The notes beneath the pieces are model-generated. The model saw only the letters and a program-made list of their open reading frames with translations. It was not told the origin of the DNA and ran no database searches. From Candidatus Omnitrophota bacterium (lineage in GTDB: Bacteria > Omnitrophota > Gorgyraeia > B26-G9), in NCBI GenBank assembly GCA_043826565.1, contig JBDRPX010000025.1:36966-100965 (forward strand): a stretch of DNA of 64,000 bases, written 5' to 3'. Shown here one piece after another: positions 24,829-62,342 of this stretch (its first letter is position 1; each line of letters opens with the position of its first letter). The position numbers and the translations under genes are program-made.

Positions 24829-25854
24829 ATGAACGATTTTTCGGTTGCGATAATTATACCGGTCAAATATTTTAATCCTAAGCTTAAAAAAGCAATTCAA
24901 GAGTGTCTTAACCTTGATTATCCATCCTTTGAAGTGCTTGTGTTTCCTGATGAGACAAGCGATGGCTTTATTCCTTTTGAAGGAAAAATTAAAATCATTC
25001 CCAGTGGAAATATGGGGCCGGCTTTAAAAAGGGATATGGCCTTGGCGCATTCCAAAGCAGATATTTTTGCTTTTTTAGATGATGATGCTTATCCGGAACC
25101 GGATTGGCTGAAGAATGCGGTAAAACATTTTAAAAAATCTGAAGTAGCTGCTGTGGGTGGGCCGTCAGTAACCCCGCCAGAAAGTTCTTTTGCCGGTGCG
25201 GCAAGTGGTACTGCTTTTGCTTCGATTACAGTTTCCGGACCATATACGTATCGATATGTTCCCGGCAATAAAATTATGGAAGTAGATGATTATCCTTCTT
25301 GTAATTTTCTTGTGCGCAGGGAAATCTTTGAAAGCCTGGGAGGCTTTGACAGCAGTTTTTATCCTGGAGAAGATACAAAGCTTTGCCTGGAAATAACGAA
25401 AAAATTAAATAAAAAAATCATTTATGATCCGGAAGTTCTTGTTTATCATCATCGCCGCGATTTGTTGATCGGCCATATTCAGCAGGTAGCAAATTATGCA
25501 ATTCATCGCGGTAATTTTTCCAAAAGGTTTCCGGAGACATCACGGAAAATTGTTTATTTTATGCCCAGCTTATTTGTCGGATTGCTGCTTAGCGGAGCAG
25601 GGGTAGTTTGCATTTTTCCTGTGCTAAAATCATTCTATTTAGGATGTATATCCCTTTATTTAGCGATAATCACAGCTAATGCTGTTTGGGTACTGCTTAT
25701 AGATAAAAAGGTTTCTTTTTTTAAGAAAGGTTTACTTATAGCTCCGGCAATTGTATTTATCGGGATAACGCATATTGTTTATGGGATATTTTTTATTAAA
25801 GGTATTTTTTTAAAACAACTTAAAGAAGAAAAGAAAGATGGAATAAATTTCTAA
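24829..25854 (+). CDS. Family 2 glycosyltransferase with C-terminal transmembrane segments
   Basis: VAIIIPVKYFN...FLDDDAYPE (DxD) is GT-A. The C-terminal ~100 aa are hydrophobic. Confidence 0.7.
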   Translation: MNDFSVAIIIPVKYFNPKLKKAIQECLNLDYPSFEVLVFPDETSDGFIPFEGKIKIIPSGNMGPALKRDMALAHSKADIFAFLDDDAYPEPDWLKNAVKHFKKSEVAAVGGPSVTPPESSFAGAASGTAFASITVSGPYTYRYVPGNKIMEVDDYPSCNFLVRREIFESLGGFDSSFYPGEDTKLCLEITKKLNKKIIYDPEVLVYHHRRDLLIGHIQQVANYAIHRGNFSKRFPETSRKIVYFMPSLFVGLLLSGAGVVCIFPVLKSFYLGCISLYLAIITANAVWVLLIDKKVSFFKKGLLIAPAIVFIGITHIVYGIFFIKGIFLKQLKEEKKDGINF

Positions 25855-25924
25855 TTACTAATTTCTAATTGACCTAAAAAAAGAGAAAGATGGAATAAAT
25901 TTCTAATTTCTAATTAACCTAAAA
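25833..25924. repeat. Imperfect tandem duplication (~45 bp x2) of the 3' end of the GT2 gene (AGAAAGATGGAATAAATTTCTAATT...CCTAAAA)
   Basis: Copy 1 overlaps the last 7 codons and stop of the GT2 CDS (…KDGINF*). Copy 2 begins 50 bp later with the same 25-mer and an internal TCTAATT repeat. Confidence 0.6.
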
Positions 25925-26025
25925 TGAGTGAAAATAAAGATAAAAAGTATGATTTAGAAGAGCGGACTGCCAAATTCGCAGAGGAAATTGTTCGTTTTGC
26001 AAAGCGAATAAAGAAGGATGTCTAG
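25924..26025 (+). pseudogene. 33-codon remnant of a 'four-helix-bundle' (23S rRNA intervening-sequence type) protein gene
   Basis: MSENKDKKYDLEERTAKFAEEIVRFAKRIKKDV* matches the N-terminal helix of the ~120-aa four-helix-bundle family (xDLEERxxxFAxxIIxxxxxL) and stops prematurely. This match is recalled from memory, not searched. Confidence 0.4.
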
Positions 26026-26127
26026 GCATTAGAGCAATTAAATGACTTTACAAACGGGTATGGCTCATAGTTTTTACTATTGACTATCGACTATTGACCG
26101 TTTAACATTAAGGACTTTCAACTAATT

Positions 26128-27618
26128 ATGAAAATTATTATTTCTTATCCGCCTTTAAATAAAGAAAAGGGTATTCCTTTACTGTCGCAAAACAGACAGT
26201 TTCAATATTTTAAGGACCCTACTTATATCTATCCGGTAGTTCCGGCGCAGGCAGCTTCACTTTTAAAAAGAGAAGGCTTTGATGTTATCTGGAACGATTG
26301 TATTGCCCAGGAATGGACTTATCCGCGGTTTATCCAATTTATTAAAGACGAAAAGCCGGATATTATTGCATTGGAGACAAAAACTCCTGTTATCCAGGAG
26401 CACTGGAAAATCATCAACAGCCTTAAAGAACTGGCAACTGGTAACTGGCAACTGGTAACTGTTCTATTTGGCGACCATGTAACGGCAATGCCGGAAGAAT
26501 CTATGCAGAATTCAAAAGTTGATTTTGTGCTTACCGGCGGCGATTACGACTTTCTCCTGTTAAATTTGTGTAATATTTTAAAAGAATTAAAACTAAACGC
26601 TATCCGCTATCCGCTATCCGCTAACTTAGAGCCTGGCATTTGGTATCGTAACGGAGAACAGATAAAAAACACCGGAACTTTTAAACTGAATCATGATTTA
26701 AATTCACTTCCTTTTATTGATCGAGATCTGACCAATTGGAAACTATACGCCTATAAAAACGGCAATTACCGCCGTACTCCGGGAACCTATATTATGAGCG
26801 GCCGGGATTGCTGGTGGGGGAAATGTACCTTTTGCAGTTGGCCGACACTTTATCCTGAGTTCCGGCAGAGAAAGGTATCCAATGTATTGGATGAAATTGA
26901 AATACTGGTAAAGCATTATGGAGTTAAGGAGATTATGGATGATTCCGGATCATTTCCGATTGGAGACTGGCTTAATGAGTTTTGCCGGGGAATGATCAGC
27001 CGGGGATTAAATAAAAAAGTAACGCTTGATTGTAATATGCGTTTTGGCGCGCTTTCTCTTGATGAATATAAGCTGATGAGAAAAGCCGGTTTTAGATTCC
27101 TGCTTTTTGGTATTGAATCAGCTAATCAGAAGACTTTAGATAAGATAAAAAAGAATCTTAAAGTAGAGACAATTACCGAATCATGCCATAATGCGCGTAA
27201 GGCGGGATTATATCCGCATATTACAATTATGTTCGGATATCCCTGGGAGACATATGAAGAGGCCCAAAACACTCTTGAACTGGGTAAATCATTGCTTAAA
27301 AAAGACTATGCCTATACCATGCAGTCTACGGTAGTTGTGCCTTATCCGGGTACGCCTTTATATGATGAGTGTAAGGCAAAAAATTTACTCTACACTACTG
27401 ATTGGACGGATTATGATATGAAAAAACCGGTTATGAAAATCGGATTTTCCCGGGAAAAGCTAATGGAGCTCGTGCAGAGCCTGTACTCGGTGAGTTTTTC
27501 TCCGGAGTTTATTATGCGTAAGATTTTCAGTATCCGGGAATTTGATGATATTAAATATTTTTCCCGGGCGTTTAAAAAAGTATGGGGACATATTTTTGAC
27601 TTTTCAAAAAAAGAGTGA
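26128..27618 (+). CDS. Cobalamin-binding radical SAM-like enzyme with atypical Cx4Cx2C cysteine spacing
   Basis: The N-terminal B12-binding-like domain is followed by SGRDCWWGKCTFCSWP (C-x4-C-x2-C rather than CxxxCxxC). The overall length and order are like the other three B12-rSAM paralogs. The gene carries two in-frame heptamer repeat arrays. Confidence 0.65.
   Translation: MKIIISYPPLNKEKGIPLLSQNRQFQYFKDPTYIYPVVPAQAASLLKREGFDVIWNDCIAQEWTYPRFIQFIKDEKPDIIALETKTPVIQEHWKIINSLKELATGNWQLVTVLFGDHVTAMPEESMQNSKVDFVLTGGDYDFLLLNLCNILKELKLNAIRYPLSANLEPGIWYRNGEQIKNTGTFKLNHDLNSLPFIDRDLTNWKLYAYKNGNYRRTPGTYIMSGRDCWWGKCTFCSWPTLYPEFRQRKVSNVLDEIEILVKHYGVKEIMDDSGSFPIGDWLNEFCRGMISRGLNKKVTLDCNMRFGALSLDEYKLMRKAGFRFLLFGIESANQKTLDKIKKNLKVETITESCHNARKAGLYPHITIMFGYPWETYEEAQNTLELGKSLLKKDYAYTMQSTVVVPYPGTPLYDECKAKNLLYTTDWTDYDMKKPVMKIGFSREKLMELVQSLYSVSFSPEFIMRKIFSIREFDDIKYFSRAFKKVWGHIFDFSKKE
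26431..26461. repeat. Heptanucleotide tandem repeat (CTGGCAA/CTGGTAA) x4.4 inside the rSAM CDS (encodes LATGNWQLVT)
   Basis: Direct reading gives ctggcaa ctggtaa ctggcaa ctggtaa ctg. Confidence 0.8.
26598..26625. repeat. Heptanucleotide tandem repeat (CGCTATC) x4 inside the same CDS (encodes IRYPLSANL)
   Basis: Direct reading gives cgctatc cgctatc cgctatc cgctaac. Confidence 0.8.
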
Positions 27619-36418: not shown

Positions 36419-37274
36419 CATTAAGGTTTCACTTATAATTACTACAAAAAATGCTCAACAGTATATTGCCGGATGTTTAGATTCAATAAAATATCAGAAT
36501 TACAATCAATCTGAAATTGAAGTTATAGTTGTTGATAATAATTCTACTGATAAAACTAAAGAAATAGCTTCTAAGTATACGGATAAAATCTACAACTGCG
36601 GTCCGGAGCGTTCAGCGCAAAGGAATTTTGGGATTAGTAAGGCATTGGGAAAATATGTTCTTTATCTTGATGTCGATATGTTGCTTTCTGAAAATGTCCT
36701 TTCAGAGTGTGTAGAGAAAATAGAGGCTGATGATCTGATTGCTTTATATGTCCCGGAGGTAATCGTCGGTAAAGGGTTTTGGATACAGGTGAGAAACTTT
36801 GAACGCAGTTTTTATAATGCAACGGTTGTTGACTGTGTTCGTTTTATAAAAAAAGATGCATTTATGAAAATAAAAGGATTTGATGAAAATTTAACCGGCC
36901 CGGAGGATTGGGATTTAGACAGAAGAATAAATCAAACTGGAAAAACATCAATAATAAATGTTCCGATTTATCACAATGAAGGTGTTTTTAACCTTAAAAA
37001 CTATTTACTTAAAAAAAGCTACTATTCAAAAACATTTGAAAAATATGTGCAAAAGTGGGGAAAAAATGACGCAATAATAAAAAAACAGCTTGGGTTTTCT
37101 TATCGGTTTTTTGGTGTGTTTATAGAAAATGGAAAATGGAAAAAACTTATCAGTTGTCCTGTTTTTACATGGGGTATGTATTTTTTGAGATTTTTAGTTG
37201 GGCTTACATTCCTTGTGTCTAGAATCGGCCGAAATCCTTTAAAAAATAAAGGTAATATTTATGGACAGAAATAG
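36411..37274 (+). CDS. Family 2 glycosyltransferase
   Basis: VSLIITTKNAQQYI...VVDNNSTDKT...YLDVDM (DxD). Confidence 0.7.
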   Translation: MDNIKVSLIITTKNAQQYIAGCLDSIKYQNYNQSEIEVIVVDNNSTDKTKEIASKYTDKIYNCGPERSAQRNFGISKALGKYVLYLDVDMLLSENVLSECVEKIEADDLIALYVPEVIVGKGFWIQVRNFERSFYNATVVDCVRFIKKDAFMKIKGFDENLTGPEDWDLDRRINQTGKTSIINVPIYHNEGVFNLKNYLLKKSYYSKTFEKYVQKWGKNDAIIKKQLGFSYRFFGVFIENGKWKKLISCPVFTWGMYFLRFLVGLTFLVSRIGRNPLKNKGNIYGQK

Positions 37275-47585: not shown

Positions 47586-47629
47586 TATACTAAGGACAAA
47601 GTATATAGTTTTAGCAGTTTTATCCTTTT

Positions 47630-47790
47630 ACGGACAAAGGCAAACCCTGTGTGAACAGGGGGCGTCCCAAAGGTGGCAAACGTTGTTTGTGCAACCGGGA
47701 CCCCGAAGAAAAGCAGCGCTATTATAAATATATTATTCGGGGCAAAGCCGCGGGTCTAAGGAATATCTTAGATAGCCGGGTTACCGAAAG
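47630..47790 (+). ncRNA. Candidate c-di-GMP-I (GEMM) riboswitch aptamer(s), possibly tandem or with an insertion
   Basis: GC-rich island in an AT-rich genome. GGCAAACC-CUGU-GUGA(GNRA)-ACAGGGGGCGUCC, then GGGGCAAAGCCGCGGGUCUAAGG...CUUAGAUAGCCGGGUUACCGAAAG. This mirrors the Vc2 GEMM blocks GGCAAACC..GAAA..GGGACGCAAAGCC..GGCCUAAACC..GGGGUUACCGA, as I recall the consensus. An intrinsic terminator follows, and a pilin gene lies downstream. Confidence 0.45.
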
Positions 47791-48143: not shown

Positions 48144-48545
48144 ATGTTTAATAAAAAAGGTTTTACGTTGGTTGAACTTTTGATGGTTGTTATCATCATC
48201 GGTATTTTAGTTACACTTGCAGTTCCGAACTACTACAGATCAATAGAAAGAGCAAAAGGTGGTAAAGCAAAAGCAGCTTTAGACGGTATTAGAAAAGCTG
48301 AATTGCAGTACAGAGCGTTTAATGATACTTATACAGGGACAATTGCTGATTTGGCGGAGTATGATTTGCCGCCGGAGATTGCTGCTGGGGCAGATTCAGA
48401 TTGGGCTTATACTATCCCGACATCAACATCAACAGCACTGGGTCTTACTGCCACAAGAAGTGCTGGTCCGCATGCTACAGAAGTAATTAGTATGGATCAG
48501 GATGGTGTATTGACTTCAACAATAGGTGATTGGGGCGTCAGATAA
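48144..48545 (+). CDS. Type IV pilin / pseudopilin (prepilin-type N-terminal cleavage/methylation domain)
   Basis: MFNKKGFTLVELLMVVIIIGILVTLAVPNY has the class III signal G|FTLVE with the Glu+5. The protein is 133 aa. Confidence 0.8.
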   Translation: MFNKKGFTLVELLMVVIIIGILVTLAVPNYYRSIERAKGGKAKAALDGIRKAELQYRAFNDTYTGTIADLAEYDLPPEIAAGADSDWAYTIPTSTSTALGLTATRSAGPHATEVISMDQDGVLTSTIGDWGVR

Positions 48546-49761: not shown

Positions 49762-49962
49762 TTTAAAATATTCTTGACTATTTAGCTTGATTAGTAATAA
49801 TATAATAAAAGGATATAAAAAGTTTGCAATATAAAGACTTTTAAGTTTATTATAGAGTACAAGCTTTACTTTATAACTTTACAACTTTAAAACTTTCAAC
49901 TTAAATATATGTGCCCTCTGGGCAGGAATCCGTGAGCTGAATATGTTTGTAAGAAGACGTCG

Positions 49963-50880
49963 ATGAGTAATTCAAAAAAATTAGGTAAAGGCTTAGAAGA
50001 TATATCGTATTTGTTTCTTTCCCCAGCAGAAGAAGATTCTCTTTCTAAAGAAAGCTTTGGTCGGCAGGAGAAAAAAACCGCCTCTATTTTAGAAACTCCG
50101 ATTAAAAGTATTTGTCTGATCGGGAACAATTCCTCTTTTCTTGATGCTTTTCTGGTCATTAATTTATCATTAGCTTTAGCCCGTTTGGGTATGCGTATTG
50201 CGGTTGTTGATATGGAGCCGGAACTGCCTTGTTTGAATTTTTTTCTGGGAAATGAATTACAAAAAGGCACTGTGGATAATTCTGAAGGTTTGGTCCGGGA
50301 GGGGCCCTTAGGCGTTAAATTGGTCAGCCTGAATAAATTTACTTTTGAGCATCTTGCGAAAAATGAGAATAGTGACAGGATTATTGAACAGCTAAGTAAA
50401 ATAGAAGAGGATGTTGACCTGATTTTGGTAAATGTAATGCAAAAGAATTTATTTGCCGCAAAGAGTGCTTTAAATGACTTGGGAACGGAATTTTTAGTGA
50501 TCTCTGCACCGGATAAAAACAGAATTCTGGATTCCTATCGAATAATAAAAACAATCTTTCAGAGTAACCCTCTTTCTAAAGTTGGTTTGGTAGTTACTGA
50601 TGTTAACCATATGTATGAAATAGACGCGGTTTATAATAAAATGTTTGGTGCAGTTAAAAAATTTTTAGATAAGGAATTATATAAATGCGGGTTTTTGTTT
50701 AAAATCAGGCAGGATGTTGATTTTAAAGCAACGATAGCATCATTTTATGATGCGGATTTAACCGCATGTATTTCCAATATAGCTCAGATTGTTTTGTTGC
50801 GGTTAAATTTGGGCGGGGATGTTATAACTAAAGGCTCATTTTTTAAAAAAATGGTCAGCGGTTTTAGTTTGCCGAGGTGA
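49963..50880 (+). CDS. Walker-A-degenerate ParA/MinD-like protein with ParB-like N-terminal LGKGL peptide (candidate partner/adaptor)
   Basis: The N-terminus MSNSKKLGKGLEDISYLF resembles the ParB/Spo0J N-terminal ParA-stimulating motif (LGRGL/LGKGI). ICLIGNNSSFLDAFLVINLSLALARLGMRIAVVDME aligns with the MinD [34 protein letters not shown], but the P-loop lysines and glycines are lost. Confidence 0.55.
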   Translation: MSNSKKLGKGLEDISYLFLSPAEEDSLSKESFGRQEKKTASILETPIKSICLIGNNSSFLDAFLVINLSLALARLGMRIAVVDMEPELPCLNFFLGNELQKGTVDNSEGLVREGPLGVKLVSLNKFTFEHLAKNENSDRIIEQLSKIEEDVDLILVNVMQKNLFAAKSALNDLGTEFLVISAPDKNRILDSYRIIKTIFQSNPLSKVGLVVTDVNHMYEIDAVYNKMFGAVKKFLDKELYKCGFLFKIRQDVDFKATIASFYDADLTACISNIAQIVLLRLNLGGDVITKGSFFKKMVSGFSLPR

Positions 50881-52378: not shown

Positions 52379-52453
52379 CTAATAGCTGATCGGGTTAAGT
52401 TCGAAGTTGCAATATCCAAACTATAGCGCAACCAGTGTATTCTTGAGGCTTAT

Positions 52454-52474
52454 GACTTGAGACTTGAGACTTGT
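52454..52474. repeat. Heptanucleotide tandem repeat (GACTTGA) x3 in the intergenic region
   Basis: gacttga gacttga gacttgt. The unit is the reverse complement of the NCAAGTC units inside proS. Confidence 0.75.
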
Positions 52475-52592
52475 GGCTGTGATAATTCCCTTGACATTAA
52501 ATATCAAATAATATAATATTACAGTGCTAAAATGTTTTAAGCTATAATATTTATAGCTGTAAACTTTATGCTTTTAAAATAAGGAGGGGGTC

Positions 52593-55663: not shown

Positions 55664-55673
55664 AGCAAGATGT

Positions 55674-55767
55674 CAGAAGACAGAAGTCAGAGGTCAGAAT
55701 TAAATAACGATAAATTTTCATTTTTTATTTTTATCTGACATCTGTCATCTGATCTCTGTTTTCTGAA
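55674..55767. repeat. Two opposed heptamer arrays (CAGARGT x4; ATCTGNC x5) flanking a 31-nt AT-rich spacer
   Basis: cagaaga cagaagt cagaggt cagaatt ... atctgac atctgtc atctgat ctctgtt ttctgaa. The CAGA core is inverted (TCTG) in the second array. Confidence 0.75.
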
Positions 55768-55788
55768 TTTTGAATAAGCGGAGACAAA

Positions 55789-60634: not shown

Positions 60635-62342
60635 TATGCTGCTTCCTACGCTTAAGGAGGTTCCGGCAGAAGCAGAAGCGATTAGTCATATTTTAATGAC
60701 TCGGGCAGGGTTGATTCGTAAACTTACTTCCGGAGTGTATTCTTATCTGCCGATTGGTTTTAGGGTATTAAAGAAGATTGAGGATATAATCAGGCAGGAG
60801 ATGAATAAAAAAGGTGCTCAGGAAGTACTATTGCCGGCAGTACAACCTGCGGAACTTTGGCAAAAGAGCGGGCGTTTTGAGGCTTTGGGTGAAGATATGA
60901 TTAAATTCACCGATAGACACGGTAAATTGAATATTCTCGGGCCGACACATGAAGAAGTTATTACAACTCTTATCAAGAATGAAGTCAGTTCATACCGGCA
61001 GATGCCTTTGATAATTTATCAGATCCAGACTAAGTTTCGGGATGAAGCGCGTCCGCGTTTTGGAGTTATCCGCTGTCGTGAATTTATTATGAAAGATGCT
61101 TATAGTTTTGACCGGGATACTTCCGGGCTTGATGAAAGTTACCAAAAAATGTATGATGCCTATTGCCGGATATTTAAGCGCTGTGGGCTGAACTGTATTC
61201 CGGTAGAAGCAGATCCCGGAATTATGGGCGGCAGTGCTTCTTGTGAATTTATGGTTTTGGCTAAAAGCGGAGAAGATAAAATTGTCCGTTGTAAAAAGTG
61301 TGGATATGCGGCAAGCATGGATAAGGCTGAGTGTGTTGAGCAAGCCGCAAGTCACAAGTCGCAGGTCGCAAGTTTCGAACAAATGCTAAAGGTGAAGACA
61401 CCGGGAGTGAGTACGGTCAAAGATGTTGCGGAATTTTTGGAAGTATCGCCGGATAAGCTTATAAAAACATTAGTATACATTAGTGACGGAAAGACTATTG
61501 CGGTACTTCTCCGGGGAGATCATGACCTTAATGAGGCCAAATTGATGCATGCTTTAAAAGCAAAGCATCTGAGTATGGCTGATGAGAGTACAATTGAACA
61601 AGCTACCAAAGGTCCCGTGGGATTTAGCGGACCGGTAGGGCTTGAGAACATTAAAATTATCGCGGATTTCTCCTTGCAATCCGGGCAGAATTGGATTGCC
61701 GGGGCCAATGCGGCAGATACCCACCTAAAGAATGTTAATGCGGATAGGGATTTTAAGGTATCTAATTGGGCGGATCTGCGCAATATTACAGAATCGGACA
61801 GCTGTTCCAAATGTGCCGGGGAGATCGAAATTTGTTTAGCTATTGAAGCGGGACATGTTTTTAAGCTGGGAACAAAATATACTGATAGTCTGGAGGCTAC
61901 TTTTTTAGATGAACAGGGAAAGGCATCAAAGATTATAATGGGATGCTATGGTATTGGGGTTACCAGAATAATCGCGGCAGCTATTGAGCAAAACAATGAC
62001 GAAAACGGAATTATTTGGCCTATGCAGATAGCGCCATTCCATGTTTTAATAATGCCTTTGAATCCTGAACATGATGGTTCTAAAAAAACAGCACAGGAGA
62101 TTTATAATCAGCTGACTCAGCAGGGCATAGAAGTATTGCTGGATGACCGCAATGTGAGGGCAGGGTTTAAATTTAAGGATGCGGATCTTATTGGAATACC
62201 GGTGCAGATTATTATTGGTGAAAAAAGTTTAGCGGAGAATTTAATAGAAGTGAAAATAAGGGAAACTGGCGAGCGTCTAAAAATTCCGGCAGATAAAGTT
62301 GTTCAAGAAGTGACGCAGAGGGTTAATAAAACATTTTATTAG
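60621..62342 (+). CDS. proS: Prolyl-tRNA synthetase (bacterial type with INS editing domain)
   Basis: MRWSNMLLPTLKEVPAEAEAISHILMTRAGLIRK parallels the E. coli ProS N-terminus. Class II motifs are present, and the C-terminal anticodon-binding domain follows. Confidence 0.9.
   Translation: MRWSNMLLPTLKEVPAEAEAISHILMTRAGLIRKLTSGVYSYLPIGFRVLKKIEDIIRQEMNKKGAQEVLLPAVQPAELWQKSGRFEALGEDMIKFTDRHGKLNILGPTHEEVITTLIKNEVSSYRQMPLIIYQIQTKFRDEARPRFGVIRCREFIMKDAYSFDRDTSGLDESYQKMYDAYCRIFKRCGLNCIPVEADPGIMGGSASCEFMVLAKSGEDKIVRCKKCGYAASMDKAECVEQAASHKSQVASFEQMLKVKTPGVSTVKDVAEFLEVSPDKLIKTLVYISDGKTIAVLLRGDHDLNEAKLMHALKAKHLSMADESTIEQATKGPVGFSGPVGLENIKIIADFSLQSGQNWIAGANAADTHLKNVNADRDFKVSNWADLRNITESDSCSKCAGEIEICLAIEAGHVFKLGTKYTDSLEATFLDEQGKASKIIMGCYGIGVTRIIAAAIEQNNDENGIIWPMQIAPFHVLIMPLNPEHDGSKKTAQEIYNQLTQQGIEVLLDDRNVRAGFKFKDADLIGIPVQIIIGEKSLAENLIEVKIRETGERLKIPADKVVQEVTQRVNKTFY
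61347..61374. repeat. Heptanucleotide tandem repeat (GCAAGTC-like) x4 inside proS (encodes ASHKSQVASF)
   Basis: gcaagtc acaagtc gcaggtc gcaagtt. Confidence 0.75.

What the first reader, a model, noticed from the sequence alone, without database searches (positions are those of the whole stretch)
26431..26625. In-frame heptanucleotide tandem repeats inside a radical SAM gene: part of a genome-wide family of short heptamer arrays
Two different 7-nt units are tandemly repeated about 4 times each (CTGGCAA/CTGGTAA; CGCTATC) within one CDS. They encode the low-complexity inserts LATGNWQLVT and IRYPLSANL. Similar 3-5-unit heptamer arrays recur at 26076-26099 (ACTATTG), 52454-52474 (GACTTGA), 55674-55701 (CAGARGT), 55733-55767 (ATCTGNC) and 61347-61374 (GCAAGTC, in proS). 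That is at least eight arrays in 64 kb, in both coding and non-coding DNA. Period-7 arrays are reminiscent of cyanobacterial STRR elements, but this is not a cyanobacterial-looking locus. Gain or loss of one unit inside a CDS would frameshift it (7 is not divisible by 3). These arrays are therefore potential slipped-strand phase-variation switches, here in a glycan-modifying enzyme. Alternatively they mark a lineage-specific repeat-generating process.
Basis: seen in the sequence. Interest (0 to 1): 0.65.

Follow-up and report, generated by a model that had tools for sequence, protein, structure and literature searches.

The report
Ancient in-frame heptamer repeats in Omnitrophota
Short 7-base tandem repeats are strongly over-represented in this Omnitrophota genome and its relatives, and some have sat at the same loop-coding spots of conserved enzymes across the phylum, with each species carrying its own repeat unit, so they look like long-lived self-homogenising microsatellites and not on/off gene switches.

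Summary
The window has 7 strong period-7 arrays, against 0.02 expected from shuffles. In 1.12 Mb of related Omnitrophota loci there are 76, against 0.6 expected, and no other period is comparably enriched.

The two arrays in the B12-binding radical SAM gene are not inserts peculiar to this genome. They occupy two connecting loops, R1 and R2. About a quarter (R1) to a third (R2) of 81 orthologues carry heptamer arrays there, in the same codon register but with different units. Within arrays, unit identity is 0.86–0.92. Cross-species conservation in R1 has period 7, not 3. The proS array and the GH57–uppS intergenic inverted pair are also positionally conserved.

Two alleles that are 97.9 % identical differ by exactly 21 nt (3 units). 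All 81 genes are intact, and no out-of-frame allele was found.

Best reading: these are STRR/LSSR-like heptanucleotide microsatellites, new for Omnitrophota. They evolve in concert, and selection on reading frame filters their length changes. Phase variation is not supported: tracts are short, only in-frame polymorphism is seen, and essential proS carries an array. How homogeneity in the 7-nt register is kept without frameshifts is unexplained.

The parts
26128..27618 (+). Host gene: class-B (B12-binding) radical SAM enzyme, 496 aa, in a glycan-biosynthesis-like cluster; subfamily unassigned
   Evidence: Pfam PF02310 and PF04055. The best NCBIfam hit is HpnJ at 147 bits, far below the 578-bit cut-off. 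Neighbours are UDP-glucose dehydrogenase, GT2 glycosyltransferases, a methyltransferase and a nucleotidyltransferase. A 100 % identical protein is annotated from a Ca. Omnitrophota MAG.
26429..26461 (+). R1 array, (AACTGGC/AACTGGT)x4.7, in frame. It encodes the end of helix 89-102, loop 103-109 and the start of strand 110-114 (ELATGNWQLVTV).
   Evidence: TRF period 7 at 88 % and period 14 at 100 %. Structure model. Orthologous arrays share the ACTGnnn skeleton in the same codon register. The C variant sits where a T would create an in-frame TAA, as read from the sequence.
26598..26623 (+). R2 array, (CGCTATC)x3.7, perfect and in frame. It encodes part of the 154-170 linker between the B12-binding domain and the radical SAM barrel (NAIRYPLSAN).
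   Evidence: TRF 100 %. Structure model. The same CTATCCG-type unit occurs at this site in L010, L026 and L094/P0123, and other units in about 25 other species.
26076..26098 (+). Intergenic array (ACTATTG/ACTATCG)x3.3, 29 nt upstream of the rSAM start codon; specific to this genome
   Evidence: TRF. No counterpart in 16 related loci with readable sequence upstream of the gene.
25846..25915 (+). Two (AATTTCT) arrays (25846-25870 and 25898-25915) inside a 45-bp tandem duplication that overlaps the stop codon of the GT2 gene
   Evidence: TRF period 7 and period 45. L003 has the same unit twice at the orthologous place.
52442..52478 (+). Intergenic array (CTTGAGA/GACTTGA)x4.6
   Evidence: TRF and sequence context. 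Orthologues were not examined.
55666..55772 (+). Long hairpin between the GH57 branching-enzyme gene and uppS. Its arms are an inverted pair of heptamer arrays: (AGAAGTC)x4.6 at 55668-55699 and the complementary (ATCTGAC-like) array at 55733-55767. A short U-run follows.
   Evidence: RNA fold of -39.7 kcal/mol, z = -4.7, 0 of 200 shuffles as good. Orthologous arrays in L088, (GACAGAA)x4.9 perfect, and L085, (GAAGACA)x3.7 perfect, each have a decayed complementary arm.
61340..61373 (+). proS array (GCAAGTC)x4.9, in frame. It encodes aa 240-251 in the linker before the editing domain.
   Evidence: TRF. Pfam domains. This is the only length-variable site of ProRS, with 16 length classes. Orthologous 7-nt arrays with different units occur in L085, L086 and L087, and a decayed one in L088.
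37125..37143 (+). Weak array (GAAAATG)x2.7 in a GT2 gene; below the threshold used for statistics
   Evidence: TRF score 38 and sequence context.

Best explanation
These are heptanucleotide microsatellites of the STRR/LSSR kind (LSSR = long simple sequence repeat, Mrazek 2007). They are a general property of Omnitrophota genomes.

Shown:
- Period 7 is sharply and specifically over-represented.
- Arrays survive where extra sequence is tolerated: intergenic DNA, connecting loops and interdomain linkers of proteins.
- At least four sites are occupied across many species in one fixed register: rSAM R1, rSAM R2, the ProRS linker and the GH57-uppS spacer.
- Copies within a species are nearly identical, while units differ between species.
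- Strains differ by whole multiples of three units.

Inferred:
- The arrays descend from ancient arrays and are continually re-homogenised by replication slippage, by misaligned (register-shifted) templated repair, or by ectopic conversion between arrays.
- Selection removes every product that breaks the reading frame or introduces a stop codon. Only changes of 21 nt (7 aa), or length-neutral changes, become fixed.
- The encoded peptides are probably passengers: hypervariable loops with 7-aa periodicity.
- Intergenic arrays that occur as inverted pairs form long hairpins, which may act as terminator-like or RNA-stabilising structures.
- The arrays do not need a sequence-specific reader, because the period is constant and the sequence is not.
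For: Excess and specificity of period 7:
- Window: 7 arrays against 0.02 expected.
- 80 related loci, 1.12 Mb: 76 against 0.6 expected. Period 8 gives 8 arrays and period 9 gives 6.
- Negative controls: E. coli, Treponema and codon shuffles.

Positional conservation:
- All 25 strict period-7 windows in 81 rSAM genes fall in R1 or R2. None falls elsewhere, and no other period from 5 to 10 gives a hit.
- 20 of 81 orthologues have arrays in R1 and 30 of 81 in R2.
- R1 and R2 are connecting loops in the model.
- The proS site and the GH57-uppS spacer are occupied in syntenic loci from four other genomes.

Common descent plus concerted evolution:
- Arrays sit in the same codon register and share skeletons: ACTGnnn in R1, YTnYCnR in R2, MAAGnnn in proS.
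- Column information in R1 has period 7: 0.67, 1.29, 0.98 and 0.60 bits at the A, C, T and G phases, against 0.11-0.28 at the others. Lag-7 identity is 0.58 within species and 0.41 between species, against about 0.2 at other lags.
- Within-array unit identity is 0.86 (R1) and 0.92 (R2).
- L092 and L094 are 84 % identical with no indels, yet R2 is perfect (CTGTCAA)x4.4 in one and perfect (CTATCCG)x4.4 in the other.

In-frame turnover:
- L092/L093 against L091: 97.9 % identity, and the only indel is 21 nt, or 3 units.
- P0080 against P0148: R2 differs by 7 aa.
- L066 R1 is 14 aa longer, with 10 units.
- L085 proS has 16 units.

De novo births: lineage-specific in-frame array insertions of 8-10 aa in loops of other enzymes.

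Stability: the array-bearing protein P0159 is recorded unchanged on 14 contigs.

Precedent: heptamers are the most abundant long SSR class in many bacteria, with a proposed polymerase-slippage origin (Mrazek 2007, as summarised in PMC4679880, and PMC4692102).
Against: - No read-level or population data were available, so the actual slippage spectrum is unknown.
- In-frame 21-nt slippage alone would produce period-21 identity, not period-7 identity. The homogenising step is therefore inferred, not observed. It is hard to picture in essential proS, where L086 has a perfect x5.6 array.
- The density of arrays at R1, R2 and the proS site looks higher than in intergenic DNA. That is not what a purely neutral 'permissive site' model predicts. 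These sites were, however, chosen because they had arrays in the window.
- Some units recur at non-homologous sites and within genomes: 5.9 % against 0.7 % exact sharing, and 3.6 % against 2.4 % within one mismatch. This could indicate copying between sites instead of purely local evolution.
- Only 64 kb of this genome was available.
Confidence: 0.7

Rival explanations
1. Contingency loci. The coding arrays are slipped-strand phase-variation switches that turn the radical SAM enzyme (a glycan or envelope modification) on and off by gain or loss of single 7-nt units.
For: - A one-unit change would shift the frame, as the sequence shows directly.
- The gene lies in a glycan-type cluster.
- Arrays are length-polymorphic between strains.
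- Perfect period-14 or period-7 identity inside coding arrays is easiest to reach through out-of-frame intermediates. This is an inference.
Against: - 81 of 81 orthologues are intact.
- Every array-length difference seen is a multiple of 3 units.
- Three candidate broken alleles had other causes.
- Tracts are 3-5 units, against 13-24 at the hmw1A heptanucleotide switch.
- The same kind of array sits in proS and in two GT2 genes and an aminotransferase gene of related genomes.
- R1 and R2 lie about 100 and 157 codons into the gene, not near the N-terminus, where phase-variable species enrich SSRs (PMC3315296 abstract).
Confidence: 0.1
2. Mobile or copied cassettes. Arrays are delivered, seeded or overwritten by copy-paste between sites (ectopic conversion), or in association with small palindromic mobile elements, as proposed for SDR elements nested in cyanobacterial heptamer arrays. 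R1, R2 and the proS linker are insertion hot spots.
For: - In L048 the same 30-nt double-hairpin element sits in the middle of (A/G)ACTTTC arrays at both R1 and R2.
- GGGACTGTCCC-type palindromes and a MITE-like repeat are translated in frame at R1 and R2 in other genomes.
- In P0042/L092/L084 the R2 array equals the gene's own R1 unit, left flank included, while the related allele L094 keeps a different R2 unit.
- L022, P0031 and P0038 have similar R1 and R2 units.
- Units are shared within genomes more than between them.
- Relatives carry lineage-specific array insertions in other genes.
Against: - The fixed codon register and shared skeleton across species at R1, R2 and proS indicate vertical descent for most arrays.
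- No transposase, target-site duplication or consistent terminal structure was found.
- Units are too diverse for one mobile family.
- The excess of unit sharing across sites is small and may reflect unrecognised orthologous sites.
Confidence: 0.15
3. Protein-level selection. The loops need a 7-residue-periodic or low-complexity peptide, and the DNA periodicity is a by-product.
For: - Peptides such as LATGNWQLVTV are kept in orthologues only 60-81 % identical overall.
- In L076 the peptide is kept while synonymous sites have drifted.
- R2 length clusters at 19 aa.
Against: - Cross-species nucleotide conservation has period 7, not 3. The same trinucleotide is conserved in all three reading frames.
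- Perfect arrays are identical at synonymous positions and across frames.
- The peptides differ completely between species.
- The same period dominates intergenic DNA.
Confidence: 0.05
4. Binding sites for a sequence-specific regulator, as suggested for TAACTGA repeats upstream of start codons in Beggiatoaceae.
For: - One array lies 29 nt upstream of the rSAM start.
- The R1 unit (T/C)AACTGG is 1-2 mismatches from TAACTGA. Among the catalogued units, four more (L044, L057, L072 and L080) are within one mismatch by my inspection. This was not formally tested.
Against: - 82 arrays have very diverse units.
- The upstream array is not conserved in relatives.
- Most arrays are coding or lie 3' of genes.
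Confidence: 0.03

Closest known systems
Cyanobacterial STRR (short tandemly repeated repetitive) heptanucleotides, and the 'long SSR' class of Mrazek et al. 2007
   Same: Tandem 7-nt units are the dominant long-SSR period. They occur in intergenic DNA, sometimes as inverted pairs able to form hairpins. Their length and sequence vary between related strains. Their origin is unexplained, and a polymerase-slippage hypothesis has been proposed.
   Different: - The phylum is different: Omnitrophota. A full-text search for 'Omnitrophota' together with 'tandem repeat' listed one paper, with a single mention of each term.
- No small set of dominant units exists.
- Arrays are short, at 3-5 units.
- About half of the arrays found lie in frame inside conserved protein-coding genes, at sites shared across the phylum.
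STRR sequences inside helix P12 of RNase P RNA genes of heterocystous cyanobacteria (Vioque 1997, NAR 25:3471)
   Same: From my own recollection of the paper, which is not held in the library (only its title was confirmed): heptamer arrays sit at one tolerated position of a conserved, essential gene, closely related strains carry unrelated units there, and the arrays are dispensable for activity. That is the same 'same site, different unit' pattern.
   Different: There the host is a structural RNA helix, and the author read the pattern as recent independent invasions. Here the hosts are protein-coding loops under a reading-frame constraint. The shared register and skeleton argue for ancient arrays that evolve in concert.
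TAACTGA direct repeats of marine Beggiatoaceae, some Cyanobacteria and Bacteroidetes (MacGregor 2015, PMC4679880)
   Same: Short heptamer arrays of 2-6 copies. A minority lie inside ORFs, where they are tolerated at the periphery of proteins. Units containing stop codons constrain orientation. The window R1 unit (T/C)AACTGG is 1-2 mismatches away from TAACTGA.
   Different: That family is a single unit, mostly placed a few nucleotides upstream of start codons, with a proposed regulator-binding role. Here units are diverse and only one array is 5' of a gene.
Phase-variable heptanucleotide SSR of H. influenzae hmw1A/hmw2A promoters
   Same: A 7-nt unit, slipped-strand length variation, and an association with surface or glycan functions.
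   Different: That tract has 13-24 units, lies in a promoter, and grades transcription as a function of unit number. Here tracts are 3-5 units inside coding loops, with only in-frame variants observed.
Small dispersed repeats (SDR) nested in tandem heptamers in Nostoc (Elhai et al. 2008, Genome Res 18:1484)
   Same: From my own recollection (not held; title confirmed): 21-27-nt hairpin-forming elements are found almost always inside tandem heptamer arrays. L048 shows a 30-nt double hairpin inside heptamer arrays at both R1 and R2.
   Different: This was seen in only one related genome here and not in the window. Its mobility has not been shown.

Membership tests
Heptanucleotide long SSR / STRR-type arrays | Head-to-tail tandem copies of a 7-nt unit | tested here: met
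   TRF on the window and on 84 loci.
Heptanucleotide long SSR / STRR-type arrays | Longer and more frequent than expected from genome composition, with period 7 favoured over neighbouring periods | tested here: met
   7 against 0.02 in the window and 76 against 0.6 in related loci. Periods 8 and 9 give 8 and 6 arrays. Real-genome and codon-shuffle controls are negative.
Heptanucleotide long SSR / STRR-type arrays | A few genome-wide consensus units (STRR1-3 in Calothrix/Nostoc) | tested here: not met
   The 8 window arrays have 7 different units. Only 5.9 % of within-genome array pairs share a unit exactly.
Heptanucleotide long SSR / STRR-type arrays | Preferentially intergenic | tested here: inconclusive
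   Per base, window intergenic DNA (4,870 bp) is about 16 times denser in arrays than coding DNA. By count, however, about half of all arrays in related loci are coding, and these are concentrated at R1 and R2.
Phase-variable contingency locus | SSR located in a coding region or promoter such that unit number controls expression | tested here: met
   The arrays lie in frame in the CDS, and 7 is not a multiple of 3.
Phase-variable contingency locus | Strains or reads differ by unit numbers that switch the frame on and off | tested here: not met
   81 of 81 genes are intact. The differences found are 3 units or 7 aa. Candidate off alleles had other causes. Read-level data were not available.
Phase-variable contingency locus | Tract long enough for high slippage rates | tested here: not met
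   3.3-4.9 units in the window, against 13-24 at hmw1A.
Phase-variable contingency locus | Host gene is dispensable and environment-facing | tested here: inconclusive
   The rSAM gene sits in a glycan-type cluster, but the same kind of array occurs in proS.
TAACTGA repeat family (Beggiatoaceae type) | The unit is TAACTGA | tested here: not met
   The window units are AACTGGY, CGCTATC, ACTATYG, CTTGAGA, AGAAGTC, GCAAGTC and AATTTCT.
TAACTGA repeat family (Beggiatoaceae type) | Arrays lie within a few nucleotides upstream of start codons | tested here: not met
   Only 26076-26098 is 5' of a gene. It lies 29 nt from the start and is not conserved.
SDR-in-heptamer elements (Nostoc type) | A 21-27-nt hairpin element nested inside a tandem heptamer array | tested here: not met
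   None of the window arrays is interrupted. A comparable 30-nt element occurs in related locus L048 at both R1 and R2.

The most novel reading that the evidence does not exclude
Omnitrophota (and, by analogy, heterocystous cyanobacteria) have a length-neutral homogenising process that works in the 7-nt register. Candidates are transient one-unit misalignment with templated repair, or ectopic conversion between arrays. This process would keep short heptamer arrays perfect for very long times, even inside essential genes where one-unit slippage is lethal. It would also make the arrays preferred landing or exchange sites for small palindromic elements. The arrays would then be a self-propagating sequence state with its own dynamics, not passive slippage debris.
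Probability: 0.2. Interest if true: 0.75.

Novelty: new variant of a known kind. Interest (0 to 1): 0.5.

Why it matters
Heptanucleotide arrays have been known in bacteria since 1990, and their over-representation since 2007. Why the period is 7, and what maintains the arrays, is still unexplained.

Omnitrophota add a distant phylum and, more usefully, a natural experiment. Here the arrays sit in frame in conserved, partly essential genes at orthologous sites. The reading frame therefore acts as a filter that separates one-unit slippage from three-unit slippage and from length-neutral conversion. Read-level data from existing metagenomes could measure these rates directly.

There are also practical consequences:
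- The arrays create hypervariable 7-aa-periodic loops that can mislead alignment and annotation.
- They break assemblies, as with the scaffold gap in L084.
- They mark insertion-tolerant loops and domain linkers in proteins. A natural split of the rSAM enzyme exactly at R2 is seen in L082 and L083.

Tried and rejected
- **First period scan:** my first home-made scan was too strict, finding only 1 array. I replaced it with TRF plus shuffles.
- **Exact-protein look-ups:** look-ups for the window rSAM protein and for P0001 found nothing on record. The rest of the 110-kb source contig could therefore not be fetched, and no genome-wide scan of this MAG was possible.
- **Search for frameshifted alleles among members of 90 % clusters:**
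  - L081 has a missing A in an A5 run beside an array of unchanged unit number, on a contig full of broken genes. This is probably a sequencing error.
  - L082 and L083 carry a GAA>TAA nonsense codon.
  - L084 has an N-gap.
  - P0180/P0181 split at aa 390, unrelated to the arrays.
  - None is a change in unit number.
- **Metagenome scans:** I scanned with array flanks and a variable gap to catch length variants. The window R1 gave nothing, and L011 R2 gave only the source assembly.
- **Best-rotation identity test:** between-species unit identity at best rotation (0.52-0.55, against 0.48-0.50 for random heptamers) lacked power. The fixed-register analysis replaced it.
- **Stop-codon filter:** I tested it as an explanation for the G-poor units at the rSAM sites and rejected it. 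The filter predicts G at 0.25, while the observed value is 0.14. The proS units are not G-poor.
- **Genome-level propensity:** loci with rSAM arrays have 0.55 other arrays per 10 kb, against 0.23 for loci without. This is not significant (p = 0.18).
- **Unit families:** single-linkage clustering of units percolated into one component and gave no information.
- **Literature:** Vioque 1997 and Elhai 2008 are not held in the library.
- **Short ORF:** the ORF at 25924-26025 has no Pfam hit.
- **Other readings considered and rejected:**
  - CRISPR-like arrays: there are no spacers.
  - Programmed-frameshift slippery heptamers: the units are not of the X XXY YYZ form.
  - Assembly artefact: the same sites are occupied in dozens of independent assemblies.
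Full report
**1. What is in the window.**

The window is AT-rich (33-43 % GC). GC skew is positive in every 2-kb bin, and every long ORF is on the + strand. The radical SAM protein and ProRS are 100 % identical to proteins annotated from a Candidatus Omnitrophota MAG on a 109,876-bp contig.

Tandem Repeats Finder (TRF) confirms the two arrays of the finding:
- (AACTGGC/T)x4.7 at 26429-26461, which is perfect at period 14.
- (CGCTATC)x3.7 at 26598-26623, which is perfect.

Both arrays of the finding lie in frame in ORF 26128-27618. This is a B12-binding radical SAM enzyme of no assigned subfamily, and it sits among UDP-glucose dehydrogenase, GT2, methyltransferase and nucleotidyltransferase genes.

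**2. More than chance.**

Using TRF score >=39 and >=3 copies:
- The window has 7 period-7 arrays, and one array of period 8 is the only other array that passes. 100 dinucleotide-preserving shuffles give a mean of 0.02 period-7 arrays, with a maximum of 1.
- Shuffling codons within genes abolishes all coding arrays and creates none.
- 50 kb of E. coli and the two Treponema orthologous loci have none.
- In 80 related loci (1.12 Mb, nearly all Omnitrophota MAGs) there are 76 period-7 arrays against 0.6 expected. Period 8 has 8 arrays, period 9 has 6, and the other periods have at most 5.

The excess is real, specific to period 7, and a property of the lineage.

**3. The 'inserts' are conserved array sites.**

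Aligning orthologues shows segments of the same length at both positions. I call them R1 (window aa 101-112) and R2 (aa 149-167). Many read as translated heptamers with other units.

At the DNA level:
- 20 of 81 orthologues have a clear period-7 run in R1 and 30 of 81 in R2.
- R1 units include AACTGGC, GACTATC, AACTACG, GACTTAG, AACTGTT, TCAGGTG and GACTAGC (x10).
- R2 units include CGCTATC, AGCTATC, AATTATC, AATTACC, AACTTTC and ACGCTTC.
- All 25 strict period-7 windows in the 81 genes fall inside R1 or R2. None falls elsewhere, and no other period from 5 to 10 gives a hit.

In an AlphaFold model (pLDDT 76, pTM 0.80), R1 is the loop between helix 89-102 and strand 110-114. R2 is the loop between helix 140-153 and strand 171-175, that is, the linker towards the radical SAM barrel.

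Treponema orthologues, which have no arrays, show the minimal loops of 9 aa and 13 aa.

**4. Ancient arrays that evolve in concert.**

Codon-aligned, the arrays of different species occupy one register and share a skeleton. In R1 the unit is ACTG plus three variable bases: GGY in the window, GRT in L080, GTT in L072, ATY in L003, ACG in L006, CCR in L010, TWG in L020 and ATW in L022. In R2 the skeleton is YTnYCnR.

Across the 29 orthologues with a 12-codon R1:
- Column information has period 7: 0.67, 1.29, 0.98 and 0.60 bits at the A, C, T and G phases, against 0.11-0.28 bits at the others.
- The consensus sequence is itself a heptamer array.
- Lag-7 identity is 0.58 within species and 0.41 between species, against about 0.2 at lags 3, 6, 8 and 9.

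Selection on the protein would give period 3 and could not conserve one trinucleotide in all three frames.

Within arrays, units are 0.86 (R1) and 0.92 (R2) identical.

The clearest pair is L092 against L094. They are 84.2 % identical over 1,530 nt with no indel. R2 is a perfect (CTGTCAA)x4.4 in one and a perfect (CTATCCG)x4.4 in the other, with the same length and register.

**5. The same pattern at other sites.**

The ProRS array lies at the only length-variable spot of the protein (16 length classes), in the linker before the editing domain. Many orthologues show exact 7-aa periodicity there with different sequences.

DNA from four syntenic loci confirms 7-nt repeats rather than 21-nt repeats:
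- L086: (GCCACAA)x5.6, perfect.
- L085: (CAGAGRA)x16.4.
- L087: (AAGTKAA)x5.3.
- L088: a decayed array.
- All can be read in one register as MAAGnnn.

The GH57-uppS spacer carries (AGAAGTC)x4.6 in the window, (GACAGAA)x4.9 perfect in L088 and (GAAGACA)x3.7 perfect in L085. Each has a decayed complementary arm. The window pair folds into a 107-nt hairpin of -39.7 kcal/mol with z = -4.7, and L088 behaves similarly.

In those 80 kb the only strong period-7 arrays are at these two conserved sites.

Not every array is old. The array at 26076 has no counterpart in relatives. Relatives also carry lineage-specific in-frame array insertions of 8-10 aa in loops of GT2 and aminotransferase genes whose window orthologues lack them.

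**6. Polymorphism and the phase-variation idea.**

Among members of 90 %-identity protein clusters:
- P0042 and P0133 differ in R2 by exactly LSTVNCQ. At the DNA level the two alleles are 97.9 % identical, and their only indel is 21 nt, or 3 x CTGTCAA.
- P0080 and P0148 differ by 7 aa in R2.
- L066 has an R1 that is 14 aa longer.

Alleles that looked broken were not unit slips:
- L081 lacks one A in an A5 run beside an array of unchanged unit number, on a contig full of fragmented genes.
- L082 and L083, from two independent metagenomes, carry GAA>TAA at the start of R2 with a restart 13 codons later. This splits the enzyme at the linker.
- L084 is a scaffold gap.

All 81 orthologues are intact. 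The array-bearing protein P0159 is recorded unchanged on 14 contigs.

The tracts are short, and essential proS carries one. The experimentally studied heptanucleotide switch at hmw1A has 13-24 units in a promoter. Taken together, this does not support on/off switching as the role of these arrays. Out-of-frame minor alleles could not be looked for without reads, and two metagenome scans for length variants found nothing useful.

**7. Mechanism: shown and inferred.**

Shown:
- The specificity of period 7.
- Positional persistence of arrays.
- A shared register and skeleton across species.
- Homogeneity within species alongside divergence between species.
- In-frame steps of three units between strains.

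Inferred:
- Slippage or conversion homogenises the arrays.
- Selection on frame and on stop codons filters the products. For example, the C variant in the third unit of window R1 sits exactly where a T would give TAA. In L044 the TTACTGA unit is 'patched' to TTACCGA where TGA would fall in frame.

An open point is that 21-nt slippage alone would maintain period-21 identity, not period-7 identity. Perfect arrays in coding DNA, including proS in L086, therefore imply one of two things: viable out-of-frame intermediates, which is implausible for proS, or a length-neutral process that shifts the register. Candidates for the latter are transient misalignment with templated repair and ectopic conversion.

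Ectopic exchange has some support:
- In P0042/L092/L084, R2 equals the gene's own R1 unit, left flank included. The related allele L094 keeps the widespread CTATCCG-type R2.
- L022, P0031 and P0038 have similar R1 and R2 units.
- L048 has the same nested 30-nt double hairpin inside arrays at both sites.

R1 and R2 also host in-frame palindromes and a MITE-like repeat in other genomes, so they are generally insertion-tolerant.

**8. Comparison with what is known.**

Over-representation of heptamers among long bacterial SSRs, the slippage hypothesis, and the STRR, GGGAATC and TAACTGA families are documented. A full-text search for 'Omnitrophota' together with 'tandem repeat' listed one paper, with a single mention of each term.

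The closest precedent for 'same site, unrelated units' is STRR in helix P12 of cyanobacterial rnpB (Vioque 1997). The precedent for nested elements is Elhai 2008. For both I rely on my own recollection, because only their titles could be confirmed.

The present case differs in four ways: the phylum, the diversity of units, the location in frame in conserved protein-coding loops, and the evidence for ancient orthologous arrays instead of recent invasions.

**9. Verdict.**

I rate this a new variant of a known kind, of moderate interest. The mechanism that homogenises these arrays without breaking the reading frame remains unexplained.

Noticed in passing
window 47629-47788 (+): c-di-GMP-I riboswitch aptamer (Rfam RF01051, 41.4 bits against a gathering score of 35), upstream of the ORF at 48144-48545.
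   Followed up: no
window 1-64000: All 51 long ORFs that form the gene map are on the + strand, and GC skew is +0.14 to +0.31 in every 2-kb bin. This is an unusually uniform strand bias over 64 kb.
   Followed up: no
window 25853-25944: A 45-bp tandem duplication (2 copies, 81 %) repeats the last codons of the GT2 gene together with its AATTTCT array. L003 has the AATTTCT array twice at the orthologous place (9328 and 9439).
   Followed up: partly
window 25924-26025 (+): Short ORF MSENKDKKYDLEERTAKFAEEIVRFAKRIKKDV*. From memory it resembles the N-terminus of 'four-helix-bundle / 23S rRNA intervening-sequence' proteins and may be a gene remnant. It has no Pfam hit.
   Followed up: partly
L082:339-1850 and L083:339-1757: In two independent metagenomes the rSAM orthologue is split exactly at R2 by a GAA>TAA nonsense codon, with a restart at MTGPY 13 codons downstream. 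The products are separate B12-binding (153 aa) and radical SAM (336 aa) ORFs.
   Followed up: partly
L048:10301-10366 and L048:10475-10573: The same 30-nt double-hairpin element (TCCGCCAAAGGCGGA-TCCGCCGCAGGCGGA) is nested in the middle of (A/G)ACTTTC arrays at both R1 and R2 and is translated in frame.
   Followed up: partly
L074:2066-2275; R1 and R2 of L045, L052, L055, L061, L077 and L046: An in-frame dispersed repeat of about 170 nt (a second copy is at L074:1-) and GGGACTGTCCC or GGCGGATCCGCC palindromes occupy R1 and R2 in other genomes. They give peptides such as GLSP...GTVP.
   Followed up: partly
L084:840-1005: A scaffold N-gap opens inside the R2 array in a genome where R1 and R2 share both unit and flank, so these arrays can break assemblies.
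   Followed up: no
window 49868-49902: An 8-nt array (ACTTTAAA)x3.6 (period 16, x2.2) in the spacer before ORF 49963-50880. It is the only non-heptamer array above the threshold.
   Followed up: no
rSAM arrays in 40 loci (R1 and R2): Sense-strand units at the rSAM sites are G-poor (0.14) and C-rich (0.29), although the strand as a whole is G-rich. A stop-codon filter does not explain this, and the proS arrays do not share the bias.
   Followed up: partly
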